Origin: a virus
Taxonomy: Duplodnaviria > Caudoviricetes
Direction: 5' to 3' (one strand)
DNA: 54,107 nucleotides
Virus record (IMG/VR): IMGVR_UViG_3300009422_000007
Span: 1 to 54,107 of that record
The position numbers and the translations under genes were made by a program. Below are positions 48,564 to 53,764 of this stretch, one piece after another; within the stretch, counting starts at the first letter, position 1; every line of letters starts with the position of its first letter. The notes under the pieces are model-generated. The model was not told the DNA's origin. It was given only the letters and a program-made list of their open reading frames with translations, and did no database searches.

Positions 48564-49586
48564 ATGATTCAACCTTTTAAAAAAGCGGCATGCTTTACAG
48601 ATATTCACTTTGGGTTACGGAATAACAGTAGAGCCCACAATGATGACTGTACTAATTTTATTAAGTGGTTTGTTGAACAAGCACATAACGAAGGATGTGA
48701 AACTTGCATTTTTCTTGGTGATTGGCACAATAGCCGTAGTAATATTAATGTTAGTACTCTTAACTATACTACAACAAATTTAGAATATTTAAGCCAAAAC
48801 TTTGAAAAAGTATATGCTATTATGGGAAACCATGATTTAGCTTATAGAGAAAAACGTGAGATTAACTCTCTACCTTTTGGTGATTATTTGCCTAATTTGC
48901 AAATTATTAACGATATTACTACAATAGGTGACATGACTATTGTTCCTTGGCTAGTAGGTGATGAGTGGACAGATATGAGAAATATTGAGTCTCGTTATAT
49001 ATTTGGTCACTTTGAGTTGCCTCGCTTTAAGATGAATGCAATGGTAGAGATGCCGGACCATGGAGGACTAAATGAAGGACACTTTCCTAATCAGGAACTA
49101 GTGTTTAGTGGTCACTTCCATAAACGTCAACGTAGAGGTAACATTGTTTATATGGGCAATGCATTTCCTCATAACTTTGCTGATGCAGGCGATGACGAAA
49201 GAGGTATGATGATACTACCTCATGGTGAAGATTATGAATTTAGGACCTGGCCTGATGCTCCTAAATTTAAAACTATGTCACTGACACATGCTATTGATAA
49301 CCACGAACATTTGTTTGATCATACAACATTTGCTCGTGTTACCATTGATGTAGACATTAGTTTTGAAGAAGCTTCTTATATCAAAGAAAAGTGGTATGAT
49401 GAGTACGGAATGCGTGAATTGTCTCTTATCCCAAATGCTAAAGAAGAACATTCTAAAGAATGGGAAGGTGGAGAAATTAAGTTTGAAAGTGTTGATGCTA
49501 TTGTTTTAAATCAGATTCAGTCTATTGATTCTGCCCAGATAGATAAACGTTTATTAGTTGAAATTTATCAAGGATTGAATAAATGA
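48564..49586 (+). CDS. gp47: recombination endonuclease subunit gp47 (SbcD/Mre11-like)
   Basis: TDIHFG, LGDW, GNHD, GHFE, SGHFH metallophosphoesterase motifs. Confidence 0.92.
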   Translation: MIQPFKKAACFTDIHFGLRNNSRAHNDDCTNFIKWFVEQAHNEGCETCIFLGDWHNSRSNINVSTLNYTTTNLEYLSQNFEKVYAIMGNHDLAYREKREINSLPFGDYLPNLQIINDITTIGDMTIVPWLVGDEWTDMRNIESRYIFGHFELPRFKMNAMVEMPDHGGLNEGHFPNQELVFSGHFHKRQRRGNIVYMGNAFPHNFADAGDDERGMMILPHGEDYEFRTWPDAPKFKTMSLTHAIDNHEHLFDHTTFARVTIDVDISFEEASYIKEKWYDEYGMRELSLIPNAKEEHSKEWEGGEIKFESVDAIVLNQIQSIDSAQIDKRLLVEIYQGLNK

Positions 49587-51352
49587 TTGTTTTTAAAAAT
49601 ATAACTATTAAAAACTTTATGAGTGTAGGAAATGTTACACAAGCATTAAATTTAAATGCTGACGGACTTACACTTGTCTTAGGCAACAACTTAGATTTAG
49701 GTGGTGATGGTGCTAGAAATGGTGTTGGTAAGACAACTATTGTTAATGCATTATCGTTTGCACTATATGGTGATGCATTAACTACAATCCGTAAACACAA
49801 TTTAATTAACAAAACTAATGGCAAGAATATGCTTGTTACATTAGAGTTTGAAAAGAACGGTGAAAAGTTTAAAATTGAACGTGGCCGCAGTCCTAATGTA
49901 TTACATTTTTATATTAACGATAACAAGCTCGGCGAAGCAACAGATGAGGGCCAGGGTGAAAATAGGGTCACACAAAAAGAAATAGACAGGCTCATTGGTA
50001 TGGGCAAAGAAATGTTCAAACACCTTGTTGCATTGAACACTTATACACAACCTTTCTTAGCATTACGAGCTAACGATCAAAGAGAAATTATTGAAGAACT
50101 ATTAGGAATTACCCAGCTCAGTGAAAAAGCAGACATACTCAAGGAAAATATTCGTAATACTAAAGATTTAGTTAAAGATGAAGAATCAAGGCATCGTGCA
50201 TTAGAAGAAAGTAATTCTAGGGTAAAGCAAACTATTGACGATTTGAAAAGACGTAGTAGGACTTGGACCAAGAAAAAAGATGAGGACCTTACTAATATCC
50301 TAGCAGGTATCACTGAACTAGAATCCACAGATATTGATGCAGAGATACAAGCTCATAGAGATTTAGAAGTTTTTAAAGAAAACGATAATCGCCTAAAGTT
50401 AGCAAATAATGAATTAGGATTACGACAGAGTAATATTAATAAGTTGAAAGAATCTTTTAAAGTTTCTGAATCAAATCTACTATCTTTGCAAGAAAATAAG
50501 TGTCATACATGTGGACAAGATATACATGATGATAAACAGAAAACTTTGCTTGACGATGCAAATAAATTAGTGGTCCAGATTAAAGATGCATTAAAAGATG
50601 AACATGGATTACTTGCACAAGCAGACCTTTCAGTTAGAGAAATTGGAGATATGGGTACTAGACCAGTTACAAAGTATCCTAACATCGAAGAAGCAATTAA
50701 ACATCAAAGTAACTTAGATAATTTAAAAAGTACATTGGTGTCTAAGGAAGGAGAGGCAGATCCTTACCAGGAGCAAATAGAAGCTCTTGAAACTACTGCC
50801 CTTGCAGAAATTTCATGGGATAACATGAATAAGTTTACAAGACTGCAAGAACATCAGGAATTTTTGCTTAAATTGCTTACTAATAAGGACTCATTTGTCC
50901 GTAAACGTATTATAGAGCAGAATTTAGCATATTTGAACCACAGACTAGGTTATTACTTAGATAAGTTACAATTACCACATGAAGTGGAATTTAAAAGCGA
51001 CTTAGAGGTCGACATTACTCAGTTAGGTCAAACATTTGATTTTGACAACCTAAGTAGAGGAGAACGCAACAGGCTAATCCTAGCTCTAAGTTGGAGTTTT
51101 AGAGATGTATACGAGAGTTTTACAGAGCCTATGAATTTATTGTTTATCGATGAATTAGTAGACTCAGGCATGGACCAAGTTGGTATTGAGTTATCAATGG
51201 GTGTCTTAAAGAAAATGGGCCGTGAAATGAACCGTAATGTCTTTTTAATCAGCCACCGAGACGAACTCGCTGGTCGTGTAAACAACGTACTAATGGTTGT
51301 CAAGCAAAACGGTTTTACTATGCTTGATAACTCGACAGAAATTATTTTATAA
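49583..51352 (+). CDS. gp46: recombination ATPase subunit gp46 (SbcC/Rad50-like)
   Basis: KNFMSVGN, NGVGKTT Walker A, coiled coil with CHTCGQ zinc hook, LSRGE signature, FIDE Walker B, ISH. Confidence 0.95.
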   Translation: MIVFKNITIKNFMSVGNVTQALNLNADGLTLVLGNNLDLGGDGARNGVGKTTIVNALSFALYGDALTTIRKHNLINKTNGKNMLVTLEFEKNGEKFKIERGRSPNVLHFYINDNKLGEATDEGQGENRVTQKEIDRLIGMGKEMFKHLVALNTYTQPFLALRANDQREIIEELLGITQLSEKADILKENIRNTKDLVKDEESRHRALEESNSRVKQTIDDLKRRSRTWTKKKDEDLTNILAGITELESTDIDAEIQAHRDLEVFKENDNRLKLANNELGLRQSNINKLKESFKVSESNLLSLQENKCHTCGQDIHDDKQKTLLDDANKLVVQIKDALKDEHGLLAQADLSVREIGDMGTRPVTKYPNIEEAIKHQSNLDNLKSTLVSKEGEADPYQEQIEALETTALAEISWDNMNKFTRLQEHQEFLLKLLTNKDSFVRKRIIEQNLAYLNHRLGYYLDKLQLPHEVEFKSDLEVDITQLGQTFDFDNLSRGERNRLILALSWSFRDVYESFTEPMNLLFIDELVDSGMDQVGIELSMGVLKKMGREMNRNVFLISHRDELAGRVNNVLMVVKQNGFTMLDNSTEIIL

Positions 51353-51362
51353 GGAGAATAAC

Positions 51363-51563
51363 ATGTCAGATAAAGATCCAAGAGATTCAGCACATCATTT
51401 GTCACTAATGGAAAATATGGATACCTATATTGCTGAAAATAGAAAGTTTGTAGAAAAAGGTGTTAAGGCAAGTGCAACTAGAGCTCGTAAAGCTCTTCAA
51501 GCTATTGCTGTCGCTGTAAAAGAAAGACGTAAAGAAATTACAGAAGAAAAAAACGCCCTTTAG
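51363..51563 (+). CDS. small basic histone H1-like (Hc1-type) protein
   Basis: ATG 51363 after AAGGAG; F.EKG.KASATRARKAL......K..RKEI. Confidence 0.7.
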   Translation: MSDKDPRDSAHHLSLMENMDTYIAENRKFVEKGVKASATRARKALQAIAVAVKERRKEITEEKNAL

Positions 51564-52076
51564 ATGCCTAGTAAAAGTAAGACTAAAGGATCAAGTTTTG
51601 AGAGGGAGGTTGCGACACATCTCTCAGAAATTTACAACGAAAGTTTTGTTCGAGTTCCAAACTCAGGAGCGTTCGTTGGTGGAATGAATAATGTCCGTAG
51701 AAGCTATCTAAGTGAAGAACAAATTAGAGGCTTCAAAGGAGATATCATTCCAGGTCCTAGTTTTCCTTTGCTAGTATTTGAGTGCAAATTTTATGCAGAC
51801 TTTCCTTTCCATCAATTACTCCAAAATACGGACGTACTGATATTAGATGAATGGATAAATCAAACTATAGACTGCATGGATGATAATGACTTAGGACTTC
51901 TTTGTATGAAGTTTAATAGAAAAGGTCGTTACATTGCATACGAGGACAAGTTTAAGTTTAAAACAACAAGATCTATAAACTACAAAAATTGGCTCATTAC
52001 AGAATACGATTCCTTTTGGGAATTAAACATAGAACAAGTAAAAACATACTCACAGCTCACAGAGACCATCTCTTAA
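51564..52076 (+). CDS. Holliday junction resolvase (PD-(D/E)XK nuclease)
   Basis: SK.KG..FEREVA..L, F.RVP.SGA, GDI, ECK.Y. Confidence 0.8.
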   Translation: MPSKSKTKGSSFEREVATHLSEIYNESFVRVPNSGAFVGGMNNVRRSYLSEEQIRGFKGDIIPGPSFPLLVFECKFYADFPFHQLLQNTDVLILDEWINQTIDCMDDNDLGLLCMKFNRKGRYIAYEDKFKFKTTRSINYKNWLITEYDSFWELNIEQVKTYSQLTETIS

Positions 52077-52490
52077 ACACATTGGCAAGCTATCTACTGA
52101 TAGGTTAGTGCAAGCCGTTTATATTGCACCCATAAAATCTGGATCAATTGAGGATCACAGAGGACGGAAATTCTGAGCAGTAGCAGAGACATATCACCAC
52201 TATCCTTGACAGGACGTAGTTCAAACAGCATGAAACTGGACTGGTGTATGTATATTATTGCTAAAATGAGTAGGCTCTGGTGAACTATTACAACCTACAT
52301 AACATTAGAATTGGTTTGGTTCGGTTCTATTGTTTGCGTTATTACAGTCGAGAGTAAAAGGGTACAGCGTAACCGCCCTAACATAATATGTTTCTTTAAC
52401 CAAAGTGTGGTACGAGTCTGGGTCAAGACAAACCATTTACCTTAGCCCCCAAACGGGGCTAAGTGTGGATACTCATCCAGCTCAAGCTAT
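52077..52490 (+). ncRNA. candidate large structured non-coding RNA (family unidentified)
   Basis: Largest intergenic gap in the window; more G+C-rich than its flanks; at least 9 local helices plus long-range complementary pairs; G-U pairs favour the + strand. Confidence 0.55.
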
Positions 52491-52564
52491 AATTATTATT
52501 CATGTATATAAAAAAAATTACAGTATCATAACAATACCATTAATTATCTTTCGAAGTTTAAATG

Positions 52565-52614
52565 TGAATGAGTTAAGCGAAGCGAAACGATATTCAAGAA
52601 CGAAGTATTCGTTC
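52565..52614 (+). other. hairpin cluster with GCGAAGC mini-hairpin (origin-like or terminator)
   Basis: GCGAAGC at 52577-52583; GAACGAA-GTA-TTCGTTC at 52598-52614; AT-rich tract at 52490-52560. Confidence 0.4.
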
Positions 52615-52652
52615 TATTACTGATACTTAACATTGTTAATGGAGTATTACGA

Positions 52653-52880
52653 CTAACCTACTCTGTTAGCTATGCCTTTCTTACCATACATCGTGTCAAT
52701 CTTCTCTTTAACGACTTCTGATAAGACGGCTCTGTCAGTATAAGGCATATCCCAAAGTACGTTTATTGGGTTATTTGACCATACACTTAAATTACATATG
52801 TCTTGGGTTAGGGCTCTTGCGTCAGTTTCAAAACTTTCGATATACTTGTTAATCTTATTTGAATCAGTTCCTAGACTCAA
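52653..52880 (-). CDS. gp51-like baseplate hub / tail assembly chaperone C-terminal ORF, probably reached by -1 frameshift
   Basis: W.MP..DR motif; TTG start without RBS, in the -1 frame of the upstream gene. Confidence 0.6.
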   Translation of the reverse strand: MSLGTDSNKINKYIESFETDARALTQDICNLSVWSNNPINVLWDMPYTDRAVLSEVVKEKIDTMYGKKGIANRVG

Positions 52881-53764
52881 GAGCCTGCGGAAAAAAAACT
52901 TGTTGGATCAAATAGCATATCTGTTTTATATTGTTCTTTACAATAATCACATTCAGCAGTTATTTCTCTAATAATTCCATATTCTTGAAATGCTTTAAGT
53001 TCTTCTTCAAGTCTATCTACGGAACCTCTATCTAAATTCATTAACCAATCACCAATATGCTTTCTATCTGTAATTTCATTGTCAGCATCATCTCCTGGAA
53101 TAACAACTTTAAGAATAGCACCAATTAATAAGTCTTGGCTTAGGTCAACTAATTGTGCAAAGCCAGTGTTTGCAATTTCTGTTTGTCTTTCAACTGCTTC
53201 TTCACGTTGCTCACTTGCTTGTAAAGAACGCATAGAATCAAATTGCATTTTTAATAAACGTGACTGATCCTTTAAGTTATAAGGTCTTAAATGTATTTGT
53301 AAGTTATTTGATAGTTTAACGATGCCTAATTTATCTGGAATTGGCTTTAATGTACCAATTATCTGTCCTAAACTTACATTTATTCTCTGAGACTTGCCGT
53401 CTGCTTCGTTACAGCCGTGACTAATATCCATTGGCATGTCATCTCCGTAACTTGCCATCTTAATAGCAACTAAGATCATATCAACATCTGCTGACGGAAT
53501 TTCATCAACATTAACAATGTCTGGGCAAGAACTTTTGATTACACTTCGCATAGCCTCGCCGTTAAATAAAGCGTCAGGGTTTTTAAGACGTAGTTCGTCT
53601 TTTGCAGTCATTGGATAGATAGCAAGTTCATTGCTATCTGTTAACTTAGGTGCTTCCTTGTAATATCTTCCATTTGAAGGAAGAGATATGTATGTACCGG
53701 GCTGTCTGAAATAATCCGATAAAGGGTTGGCAGTTTGTCCGGAAAGTGGGTTTTTATTATCCAT
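52877..53764 (-). CDS. gp26: baseplate hub assembly protein, gp26-like
   Basis: NPL..YFRQP..YI.LPS.G.YY, PMTAKDE...K.PDAL.NG, D.D.IL.AI..ASYG, C..C, FDPTSFF. Confidence 0.8.
   Translation of the reverse strand: MDNKNPLSGQTANPLSDYFRQPGTYISLPSNGRYYKEAPKLTDSNELAIYPMTAKDELRLKNPDALFNGEAMRSVIKSSCPDIVNVDEIPSADVDMILVAIKMASYGDDMPMDISHGCNEADGKSQRINVSLGQIIGTLKPIPDKLGIVKLSNNLQIHLRPYNLKDQSRLLKMQFDSMRSLQASEQREEAVERQTEIANTGFAQLVDLSQDLLIGAILKVVIPGDDADNEITDRKHIGDWLMNLDRGSVDRLEEELKAFQEYGIIREITAECDYCKEQYKTDMLFDPTSFFSAGS

What the first reader, a model, noticed from the sequence alone, without database searches (positions are those of the whole stretch)
52077..52490. ~400-nt ornate non-coding element downstream of the Holliday junction resolvase
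Seen: the only long gap in a gene-dense window, packed with helices: CTATC/GATAG (52090-52103); GTGCAA/TTGCAC (52108-52129); CAGAG/TTCTG (52158-52175); a long arm TAGCAG..ACATATCACCA (52181-52199) / TGGTGTATGT..TTGCTA (52242-52263) enclosing TCCT-TGAC-AGGA; GTAGG/CCTAC (52270-52298); AACA-TAGAATTGG / TCGGTTCTA-TGTT (52301-52334, several G-U pairs); AGGG..GCG-TAAC-CGCCCT (52359-52379); CTTAGCCCC/GGGGCTAAG (52441-52463); TGGAT/ATCCA (52466-52479). Long-range complements: ACAC-A-TTGG (52077) / CCAA-A-GTGT (52400), CTTGAC (52205) / GTCAAG (52422), ATGAGTA (52266) / TACTCAT (52470), suggesting multi-way junctions and pseudoknots. I do not recognise tRNA, tmRNA, RNase P or intron cores. Inference: a large structured phage RNA (compare ROOL/GOLLD/ARRPOF classes), or a folded primer RNA for an R-loop replication origin given the AT-rich tract and hairpins that follow.
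Basis: partly seen in the sequence, partly recalled or inferred. Interest (0 to 1): 0.85.

Follow-up and report, generated by a model that had tools for sequence, protein, structure and literature searches.

The report
Full-length Polynucleobacter-1 twin-box phage RNA
The gene-free gap behind a small nuclease gene of this uncultured giant T4-like phage encodes a real, knotted non-coding RNA of about 400 bases whose first third is an orphan motif catalogued in 2010, whose larger uncatalogued part carries one short word twice, and whose job is still unknown.

Summary
The element is real. Window 52094-52486 (+ strand) is one conserved, structured RNA.

- **Known part:** 52103-52251 is a full-length match to Rfam RF01718, Polynucleobacter-1 (92.3 bits, cut-off 37).
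- **Uncatalogued part:** 52252-52486 matches no Rfam family. It is conserved in 100 fetched phage loci (76 distinct sequences), including clades where RF01718 no longer scores, and in small Burkholderiales genomes.
- **Covariation:** 3' domain, 19 pairs, 95.4% paired against 79.4% in shuffles, 13 pairs changed on both sides. 5' domain, 41 pairs, 90.4% against 78.3%.
- **New pseudoknot:** the 5' tail (52094-52099) pairs with the P3 loop (52178-52183). It has compensatory variants.
- **Twin boxes:** two short boxes (52422-52427, 52481-52486) share the same variable letter in 68 of 68 sequences. I found no partner for them.

The RNA lies at a fixed place: gp47, gp46, Hc1-like gene, small nuclease, RNA, then convergent baseplate-hub genes. 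Distant clades have a consensus sigma-70 promoter in front of it. It is neither ROOL nor GOLLD, and origin primer RNA is not supported. Function is unknown. My best guess is a stand-alone RNA that presents two identical reading sites to one co-evolving partner.

This scan had already followed up the same RNA on at least nine other genomes.

The parts
52070..52093 (+). Conserved 5' leader. It overlaps the stop codon of the nuclease ORF. 52077-52080 is the tentative 5' strand of a closing helix, P0.
   Evidence: The leader motif is shared by type A and type B relatives. P0's outer pairs are mostly kept, with one pair covarying. Duplex energies are no better than shuffles, so this is tentative.
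52094..52099 (+). 5' strand of pseudoknot PK1. It pairs with the P3 loop at 52178-52183.
   Evidence: Six pairs, 100% paired in 54 distinct sequences. One pair shows UA 45, CG 7, GC 1, UG 1; another shows CG 53, UA 1. This strand lies outside the RF01718 model, which starts at 52103.
52103..52251 (+). 5' domain, equal to Rfam RF01718 (Polynucleobacter-1). Helices: P1 52108-52129, P2 52139-52160, P3 52172-52187, P4 52189-52251, P4a 52203-52214, P4b 52218-52242.
   Evidence: cmscan gives 92.3 bits against a gathering score of 37, E 1.5e-18, model positions 1-141 of 141. With PK1 that is 41 pairs, 90.4% paired against 78.3% in shuffles (0 of 500 reach it), and 23 pairs changed on both sides.
52252..52269 (+). 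A-rich linker between the two domains.
   Evidence: Conserved in A2 and A4. Types B and C carry an extra hairpin here.
52270..52298 (+). P5 (52270-52274 with 52294-52298), with inner helix P5b (52278-52280 with 52290-52292).
   Evidence: P5 is 100% paired, with 4 of 5 pairs changed on both sides. P5b has 2 of 3 pairs changed on both sides.
52299..52335 (+). P6, a long hairpin of variable sequence.
   Evidence: 50 of 50 distinct versions fold to a single hairpin of at least 9 pairs. Median z is -2.9, and 39 of 50 have z <= -2.
52335..52349 (+). Conserved single-stranded block that begins TGCGTT.
   Evidence: The GCGT core is invariant in 68 sequences. No partner was found.
52350..52396 (+). P7 (52350-52354 with 52392-52396). 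It encloses an A-rich strand, P9 (52359-52362 with 52376-52379) and P8 (52381-52384 with 52388-52391).
   Evidence: P7: 4 of 5 pairs changed on both sides, 91.9% paired. P9: 100% paired, 2 of 4 pairs changed on both sides. P8 outer pair: AU 37, CG 11, GU 7.
52405..52410 (+). Flank 1 (GTGTGG). It is the tentative 3' strand of P0.
   Evidence: In the A' clade both flanks and their presumed 5' partners change together, seen by eye only.
52416..52429 (+). Hairpin H1 (52416-52419 with 52426-52429). It presents box 1 (52422-52427, GTCAAG) in its loop and 3' strand.
   Evidence: A stem of at least 4 pairs encloses box 1 in 40 of 52 distinct sequences, and the stem sequences differ between clades.
52441..52463 (+). 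P10 hairpin.
   Evidence: 94% paired, with the apical pairs changed on both sides (GC 15, CG 11, UA 2). In types B, C and A' and in the bacterial copies, flank 2 lengthens this helix (seen by eye).
52464..52479 (+). Flank 2 (TGTGG) and hairpin H2 (52466-52470 with 52475-52479).
   Evidence: H2 holds in the window's clade only: 53.6% paired in type A.
52481..52486 (+). Box 2 (CTCAAG), the twin of box 1. It is the last conserved letters of the core.
   Evidence: Variable letter 2 of the box is the same in both boxes in 68 of 68 sequences (U 42, A 18, G 7, C 1). Letter 3 matches in 66 of 68. The A after it is invariant. Conservation among close relatives breaks right behind it.
52565..52615 (.). 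Two downstream hairpins, T1 (52565-52596) and T2 (52597-52615), between the convergent units. They may be the end of the transcription unit.
   Evidence: They are conserved in type A with compensatory stem variants. Matching hairpins stand behind the bacterial copy, where the second is followed by a T-rich run on the RNA's strand. All pairs are Watson-Crick, so the strand cannot be told. The terminator scan of the window found none.

Best explanation
Window 52094-52486 (+ strand) is the phage copy of a stand-alone, pseudoknotted non-coding RNA of about 400 nt. A leader from about 52070, and perhaps the two hairpins up to 52615, may belong to it. It is the full-length form of the orphan Rfam motif Polynucleobacter-1.

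**Shown:**
- A 5' domain (RF01718) locked by a pseudoknot between the 5' tail and the P3 loop.
- A larger, more widely conserved 3' domain: P5, P6, then a P7 junction that holds P9 and P8.
- A 3' end built from two like modules. In each, a helix whose 3' strand reads GTGTG is followed by a short box.

**Inferred:**
- In clades B and C the RNA is made from its own early, host-type promoter. In the window's clade it is perhaps read through from the nuclease gene.
- It acts in trans. The folded core serves to present the two boxes.
- The boxes always carry the same variable letters, so they are read by one partner that changes from lineage to lineage. That partner could be two copies of a protein, or a nucleic acid that pairs with them.

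I commit to a two-site scaffold or decoy RNA. I give the mechanism itself only about one chance in three. What the RNA does for the phage is not known.
For: **Identity.** RF01718 scores 92.3 bits against a cut-off of 37, over the full model.

**Extent.** The whole stretch 52094-52486 is conserved in 31 type-A sequences. An nhmmer profile finds the 3' domain in 100 of 155 fetched loci, which give 76 distinct sequences. In 11 of 15 divergent loci scanned, no Rfam family reaches its cut-off, although the 3' domain is there.

**Structure.**
- 3' domain: 19 pairs, 95.4% paired against 79.4% in shuffles (0 of 500), against 32-54% with partners slid, 13 pairs changed on both sides.
- 5' domain with PK1: 41 pairs, 90.4% against 78.3%.
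- P6: 50 of 50 distinct versions fold to one hairpin.

**Strand.** Several conserved pairs are G-U on the plus strand, for example GU 45 with AU 12 at one P7 pair, and UG 30 of 31 and UG 31 of 31 at two further pairs. The plus strand also folds better (z -2.24 against -1.41).

**Not a leader of a gene.** In 26 of 30 loci examined the next genes are convergent, and the other 4 contigs end before them. The gp47-gp46 to hub synteny holds in the more distant loci too.

**Own promoter.** In all 15 type B and C loci listed (14 full-length, 1 cut at its 5' end), 14 have a sigma-70 match of 11-12 of 12 upstream on the same strand. The one cut at its 5' end scores 8.

**RNA libraries.** Contigs of 4 of 4 laid metatranscriptome runs, from 4 studies, lie on the element. 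One runs unbroken across both boxes. There are no joints.

**Twin boxes.** Identity in 68 of 68 and 66 of 68 sequences, with changes between close relatives. The bacterial copies carry yet another state, again the same in both boxes.

**Independence from the phage context.** Three of 151 Burkholderiales genomes carry both domains.
Against: - Nothing shows a discrete transcript, its ends or its level. The laid runs are contigs of low depth (2-3.4), RNA libraries can hold DNA, and one contig runs from the nuclease ORF into the RNA.
- No promoter better than 8-10 of 12 stands before type-A copies. In the window the RNA starts 17 nt behind a stop codon, so it may there be a 3' UTR.
- No partner of the boxes was found. 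No column of the RNA covaries with them in a complementary way. No consistent complement lies within 400 nt upstream or 300 nt downstream. No phage tRNA fits. The complement is not enriched in a genome-specific way.
- In the bacterial copy the RNA, a hairpin followed by a T-rich run, and a gene follow each other on one strand, as in a cis-regulator.
- P0, the lengthening of P10 and the module reading rest on inspection. Formal counts were not possible because the alignments are out of register.
Confidence: 0.75

Rival explanations
1. It is a cis-regulatory leader or riboswitch, as the 2010 catalogue judged likely for the motif. The fold would sense something and control the gene behind it through a terminator.
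For: Table 1 of PMC2864571 marks the motif 'probably' cis-regulatory and leaves 'riboswitch' open (I saw passages of the main text). In bacterial genome G050 the RNA is followed on its own strand by a hairpin with a T-rich run, and about 45 nt later by the start of a 224-aa ORF. In G003 a YbjN-like ORF follows.
Against: In 26 of 30 phage loci examined the genes behind the RNA are convergent, and 4 contigs end first, so there is nothing to regulate downstream. The two bacterial downstream proteins are unrelated (E 2.4). A knotted RNA of 400 nt with two domains is far larger than known leaders.
Confidence: 0.1
2. It is the RNA partner or guide of the small nuclease encoded just upstream. The twin boxes would name a nucleic-acid target.
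For: A small nuclease gene stands directly before the RNA in every phage locus where that side is on the contig: 28 of 30. It is of two unrelated kinds. Most are a SegE-like GIY-YIG domain of 142 aa (E 1.7e-31). The window's clade and L143 have PDDEXK_15. Two unrelated nucleases at one place could mean a functional tie.
Against: The bacterial copies have no nuclease neighbour. They sit beside a DUF6641 gene instead. Types B and C put a promoter between the nuclease gene and the RNA. Free-standing homing endonucleases of different families often settle beside highly conserved genes (established knowledge of T4 seg and mob genes), which explains the neighbourhood without a partnership.
Confidence: 0.08
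3. It is a counter-defence or defence-linked decoy RNA. The early, abundant RNA would titrate a host factor by mimicry, the boxes being the mimicked word.
For: Types B and C have a consensus early promoter. One bacterial copy lies on a small island with a tyrosine integrase, directly beside a complete type I Zorya system (ZorA1 1.9e-216, ZorB1 2.9e-86, ZorC1 2.9e-101, ZorD1 E 0). The boxes change from lineage to lineage, as an arms race would predict.
Against: Only one of the two bacterial contexts examined has a defence system nearby. None of the neighbours other than Zorya matches PADLOC. The fixed synteny over deep divergence (gp46 down to 47-54% identity) looks like a core gene, not an accessory one. 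Nothing was tested.
Confidence: 0.1
4. It is a DNA-level element: a replication origin with a primer RNA, or recombination sites, the twin boxes being crossover cores.
For: Two direct repeats with an identical variable core recall the crossover sites of site-specific recombinases, and one bacterial copy has an integrase two genes away.
Against: Conserved G-U pairs show selection on the plus-strand RNA. No contig shows a form lacking the stretch between the boxes: no joints in 4 runs, and all 68 full-length sequences have both boxes. The phages have no recombinase at the locus.
Confidence: 0.03

Closest known systems
Polynucleobacter-1 RNA motif (Rfam RF01718; Weinberg et al. 2010, Genome Biol 11:R31, PMC2864571)
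   Same: Window 52103-52251 matches the whole 141-position model at 92.3 bits. Helices P1 to P4 covary. Copies occur in small Burkholderiales genomes, as the paper's Table 1 says.
   Different: The model covers only about a third of the conserved RNA. It lacks the 5' strand of the pseudoknot, the whole 3' domain and the twin boxes. Most copies found here are in giant T4-like phages, not in bacteria. In phages the RNA does not precede a gene. In clades B and C the model no longer scores although the 3' domain is present.
Large ornate phage-associated RNAs
   Same: It is large, richly structured, phage-borne and of unknown function.
   Different: No Rfam family other than RF01718 matched the element. 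The size is about 400 nt, against the larger sizes I recall for those classes. No tRNA genes lie nearby. That those classes are in Rfam, and their sizes, are recalled.
Lambdoid nut sites: two near-identical boxB hairpins read by one phage-specific N protein (recalled textbook knowledge)
   Same: It works alike in one respect. Two copies of a short RNA word are kept identical within a phage and differ between phages, because one co-evolving reader binds both.
   Different: Here the words are embedded in a single large folded RNA, not in two separate transcripts. No N-like protein or antitermination context was found. This is an analogy, not a membership.
T-box leader and IS110 bridge RNA: RNAs with short programmable words read by a nucleic-acid partner (recalled)
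   Same: A conserved fold presents a few freely varying letters flanked by invariant ones.
   Different: No T-box match in Rfam. No downstream aminoacyl-tRNA synthetase gene or terminator switch in the phages. No DEDD recombinase. No matching tRNA in the one phage genome tested that carries tRNAs.

Membership tests
Rfam RF01718 Polynucleobacter-1 | Score at or above the curated gathering score, over the full model | tested here: met
   92.3 bits against 37, model positions 1-141 of 141, E 1.5e-18. All 7 close relatives score 87.6-95.8 bits.
Rfam RF01718 Polynucleobacter-1 | The model's helices are kept by compensatory change | tested here: met
   P1, P2, P3, P4 and P4b have 3, 3, 3, 7 and 4 pairs changed on both sides, P4a has 1, in 54 distinct sequences.
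Rfam RF01718 Polynucleobacter-1 | Position in front of a gene (judged 'probably cis-regulatory' in Table 1 of PMC2864571) | tested here: not met
   In phages the next genes are convergent in 26 of 30 loci, and 4 contigs end first. The condition is met in bacterial copy G050. This is the authors' judgement, not a defining property of the model.
Rfam RF01718 Polynucleobacter-1 | Taxa: Burkholderiales, fresh water or estuary (Table 1) | tested here: inconclusive
   Three of 151 Burkholderiales genomes are over the cut-off. The window itself is a phage, and its best DNA holders are labelled marine or seawater.
ROOL, GOLLD and other catalogued large RNAs | A match to the family's covariance model | tested here: not met
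   Apart from RF01718, no family reached its gathering score in the window, and none reached E <= 1 within the element. That these classes are in the library is recalled.
tRNA / tmRNA | Detected by ARAGORN | tested here: not met
   0 genes in the window.
Type III toxin-antitoxin RNA (ToxI-like) | A tandem array of identical repeats of about 36 nt, then a terminator and a toxin gene on the same strand (recalled definition) | tested here: not met
   Only two boxes of 6-9 nt share sequence. There is no downstream same-strand gene in phages. The downstream proteins of the two bacterial copies are unrelated.
RNA-guided nuclease with its guide RNA | The RNA and the nuclease gene always occur together | tested here: not met
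   They are together in phages. Neither of the two bacterial copies examined has a nuclease neighbour.

The most novel reading that the evidence does not exclude
The twin boxes are a programmable word. The conserved knotted core would be a platform that holds two copies of a 2-3-letter address, flanked by an invariant G and A, for base pairing with a lineage-specific nucleic acid. That partner could be a host tRNA loop, an mRNA or a DNA core. The RNA would then be a new kind of two-site guide or decoy, used by giant phages early in infection and borrowed by small mobile islands of Polynucleobacter-like bacteria, one of which sits beside a Zorya defence system.
Probability: 0.15. Interest if true: 0.9.

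Novelty: new variant of a known kind. Interest (0 to 1): 0.6.

Why it matters
A catalogued orphan motif turns out to be the smaller, less conserved third of a much larger RNA. That RNA is a fixed part of a deep clade of uncultured giant T4-like phages and also occurs in bacterial chromosomes.

Large, knotted RNAs with strongly conserved unpaired strands usually do something biochemically demanding, and few are known in phages.

The twin boxes are kept identical through at least six independent changes. This is an unusual, clean evolutionary signal of a reader that nobody has identified. It gives a direct experimental handle: mutate one box, or both.

The full-length alignment would also let Rfam replace a truncated model.

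The limits are plain. There is no cultured phage, no proof of the transcript's ends and no function. This scan had already reached the same reading on other genomes, so this window adds a member and some tests rather than a first discovery.

Tried and rejected
**Searches for the RNA elsewhere**
- blastn of the gap, and of a type-B element, against 50,697 named phage records gave no match.
- The nearest cultured phages by gp46 are Sinorhizobium phage Phosso (47.5% identity), Pseudomonas phage PA5oct (45.7%) and Agrobacterium phage Atu_ph07 (44.4%). Neither nhmmer nor covariance model R1 with filters off found the RNA between their gp46 and hub genes. Best was Phosso at E 0.59.
- A pattern scan of 185,579 species genomes gave 9 hits. 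One is real (L166, a 4.9-kb contig of a Limnohabitans MAG). One checked by reading (L160) lies in a protein-coding stretch. The others were not confirmed by nhmmer.

**Search for the partner of the boxes**
- Reverse complement of each box within 400 nt upstream and 300 nt downstream: no consistent place.
- Mutual information against every alignment column: only the other box scores 1.0, and the next best is 0.58 and not complementary.
- tRNA genes of two large relatives: none in G157, six in G156, none fitting its box as codon or anticodon.
- Counts of the box and its complement in three phage genomes and the window: the one enrichment (28 seen, 7.3 expected) also appears in a genome with a different box (16 seen, 5.3 expected), so it is not specific.
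- Pairing of box 1 with flank 2, and of each box with its own flank, was rejected by eye. The flanks do not change when the boxes do.

**Other tests**
- DUF6641, the bacterial neighbour, was not found in the window or in 5 larger phage records. The control search rang nowhere, so this says little.
- Leader to flank-1 duplex energies are no better than shuffles (z from -3.2 to +1.8).
- No RNA contig covers 52524-52900. This is no evidence of silence.
- A full-length covariance model was not attempted, because the tool's column and time limits exclude about 400 positions. mafft-qinsi is not installed.
They may already note flanking conservation or gene context.
- In print: 'Polynucleobacter-1' and 'RF01718' each find only the 2010 paper. 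'DUF6641' finds none. A four-term search on jumbo-phage non-coding RNA listed five papers. From titles and abstract beginnings alone, none is about this RNA.

Full report
**What is there.** The window is a 54-kb fragment of an uncultured virus record, rated 16% complete. Around the finding it encodes:
- gp47-like (48564-49586) and gp46-like (49583-51352) recombination nuclease subunits;
- a small Hc1-like basic protein (51297-51563);
- a 170-aa PDDEXK_15 nuclease (51564-52076);
- on the minus strand, a 75-aa ORF and a T4 baseplate-hub protein (52653-53764).

The nearest cultured phages by gp46 are giant myoviruses at only 44-47% identity. The stretch 52077-52652 has no credible ORF.

**Known part.** cmscan against Rfam places RF01718, Polynucleobacter-1, at 52103-52251 on the plus strand. 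It scores 92.3 bits against a cut-off of 37 and covers the whole model. Nothing else in the window reaches a gathering score. ARAGORN finds no tRNA or tmRNA. The only paper in the held library that names the motif or its accession is the 2010 catalogue. Its Table 1 rates the motif a probable RNA, probably cis-regulatory, from Burkholderiales and fresh water or estuary. I saw passages of the main text; its supplements are closed.

**The RNA is much longer than the model.**
- Seven close relatives keep the whole stretch up to 52486 almost unchanged, then diverge abruptly.
- A pattern from the 5' domain brought in 41 viral loci. In 31 distinct full-length sequences the conservation runs from the tail at 52094 to box 2 at 52486.
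- A pattern from the 3' domain, filtered with nhmmer, added 52 loci. That makes 100 loci with the 3' domain, 76 distinct sequences and 68 full-length ones.
- They fall into type A (as the window), A', B and C.
- In 11 of 15 divergent loci scanned, no Rfam family reaches its cut-off, yet the 3' domain aligns well.

The uncatalogued part is therefore the more widely conserved one.

**Structure.**
- *3' domain, part 1.* On 68 sequences, the helices P5, P5b, P7, P9 and P8 have 95.4% of cells paired. Shuffles give 79.4% (0 of 500 reach the observed value) and slid partners give 32-54%. Thirteen of 19 pairs change on both sides.
- *P7* is a long-range helix (52350-52354 with 52392-52396). It closes a junction that holds an A-rich strand, P9 and P8.
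- *P6* is too variable to count by column, but all 50 distinct versions fold to a single hairpin.
- *5' domain.* On 57 sequences, three of them bacterial, the Rfam helices and a new pseudoknot have 90.4% of cells paired against 78.3% in shuffles.
- *PK1* joins the tail (52094-52099) to the P3 loop (52178-52183). It is paired in every one of 54 distinct sequences and shows four pair types at one position and two at another.
- *P10* holds (94%). H2 holds only in the window's clade.
- *Strand.* Conserved G-U pairs on the plus strand fix the strand.

Of the three long-range pairs, one is partly kept and two fail.

**The twin boxes.** Near the 3' end a short word occurs twice: 52422-52427 and 52481-52486. 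Each follows a flank that reads GTGTG.
- Across 68 sequences, the second letter of the box is the same in both copies in 68 of 68 (four states). The third is the same in 66 of 68. The following A is invariant.
- Close relatives differ in both boxes at once, for example L059 against L093 and L013 against L051.
- The bacterial copies carry a further state, again matched.
- Box 1 sits in the loop and 3' strand of a hairpin whose stem differs between clades (40 of 52).
- By eye, flank 2 lengthens P10 in types B, C and A' and in bacteria. Flank 1 may pair with the leader (P0). Each box would then follow the end of a long helix. This part is inference.
- I found no partner. The tests in cis, by mutual information, against phage tRNAs and by word counts were all negative.

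**Context.**
- The order gp47, gp46, small genes, RNA, convergent hub genes holds in all loci with enough flank, down to 47-54% gp46 identity.
- The gene just before the RNA is a 142-aa SegE-like GIY-YIG domain in most lineages, and PDDEXK_15 in the window's clade and in L143.
- Types B and C have a consensus sigma-70 promoter between that gene and the RNA. Type A has none that I could see.
- Two hairpins about 80 nt behind the core are conserved with compensatory changes. They match a pair of hairpins behind the bacterial copy, the second followed by a T-rich run. This speaks against the origin reading of the neighbouring note.

**Outside phages.**
- Three of 151 sampled Burkholderiales genomes (1.8-1.9 Mb) carry RF01718 over the cut-off. 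All three also carry the 3' domain.
- In the two contexts examined (G050 and G003) the RNA faces a DUF6641 gene, which also matches phrog_31551.
- In G050 it lies between a complete type I Zorya system and a 224-aa ORF plus a short tyrosine integrase. In G003 a YbjN-like ORF follows.

**Expression.** The best DNA holders of the window are labelled marine or seawater. Contigs from four metatranscriptome runs of four studies lie on the element. One covers 52236-52486 without a break. No joints were seen. These are contigs of low depth. They show presence in RNA libraries, not a transcript.

**Reading.** This is a real, stand-alone-looking, pseudoknotted RNA, the full-length form of an orphan motif. 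The cis-regulator, nuclease-partner, decoy and DNA-element readings are weighed under rivals; none is shown. I commit to a trans-acting RNA that presents two identical sites to one co-evolving reader, with about one chance in three for that mechanism.

**Earlier notes.** The scan's earlier notes describe the same RNA on at least nine other genomes with the same open question. I reached the bacterial copies and the boxes before reading those notes. They agree with my reading, which is not independent proof.

Noticed in passing
window 52653-52900 (minus strand): The 75-aa ORF and the 295-aa baseplate-hub ORF overlap by 4 bases (52877-52880). Another first-stage note proposes a programmed -1 frameshift here. 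In relatives the pair is a 74-76-aa ORF plus a 298-aa ORF.
   Followed up: no
L172:11765-19894 (bacterial genome G050): A complete type I Zorya system (ZorA1, ZorB1, ZorC1, ZorD1) stands about 1.5 kb from the bacterial copy of the RNA. A 138-aa ORF and a DUF6641 gene lie between them, and a 212-aa tyrosine integrase lies on the other side.
   Followed up: partly
L172:10373-10837 and L173:1466-1963: A DUF6641 protein (also phrog_31551, E 1.1e-23) is the only neighbour shared by the two bacterial copies examined. It is transcribed divergently from the RNA.
   Followed up: partly
L156:9868-10530 (Pseudomonas phage PA5oct) and L157:9411-10424 (Sinorhizobium phage Phosso): These cultured relatives have unannotated gaps of about 660 and 1,010 bases between gp46 and the baseplate hub, at the place where this RNA sits. 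No homologue was detected.
   Followed up: partly
L029, about 10-55 bases behind box 2: A 10-base unit is repeated four times in tandem just behind the RNA core of one relative (printed).
   Followed up: no
window 51297-51563: A small Hc1-like (histone H1-like) protein gene overlaps the end of gp46. It is kept at this place in most relatives.
   Followed up: no
L166:3273-3418 (4.9-kb contig binned as Limnohabitans): A GC-richer, divergent fourth form of the 3' domain. Its two boxes do not look identical. The contig may be phage DNA binned with a bacterial genome.
   Followed up: partly
window 51993-52029: A weak match to a CRISPR repeat model (23.6 bits, E 0.51) inside the nuclease ORF. I take it for chance.
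   Followed up: no
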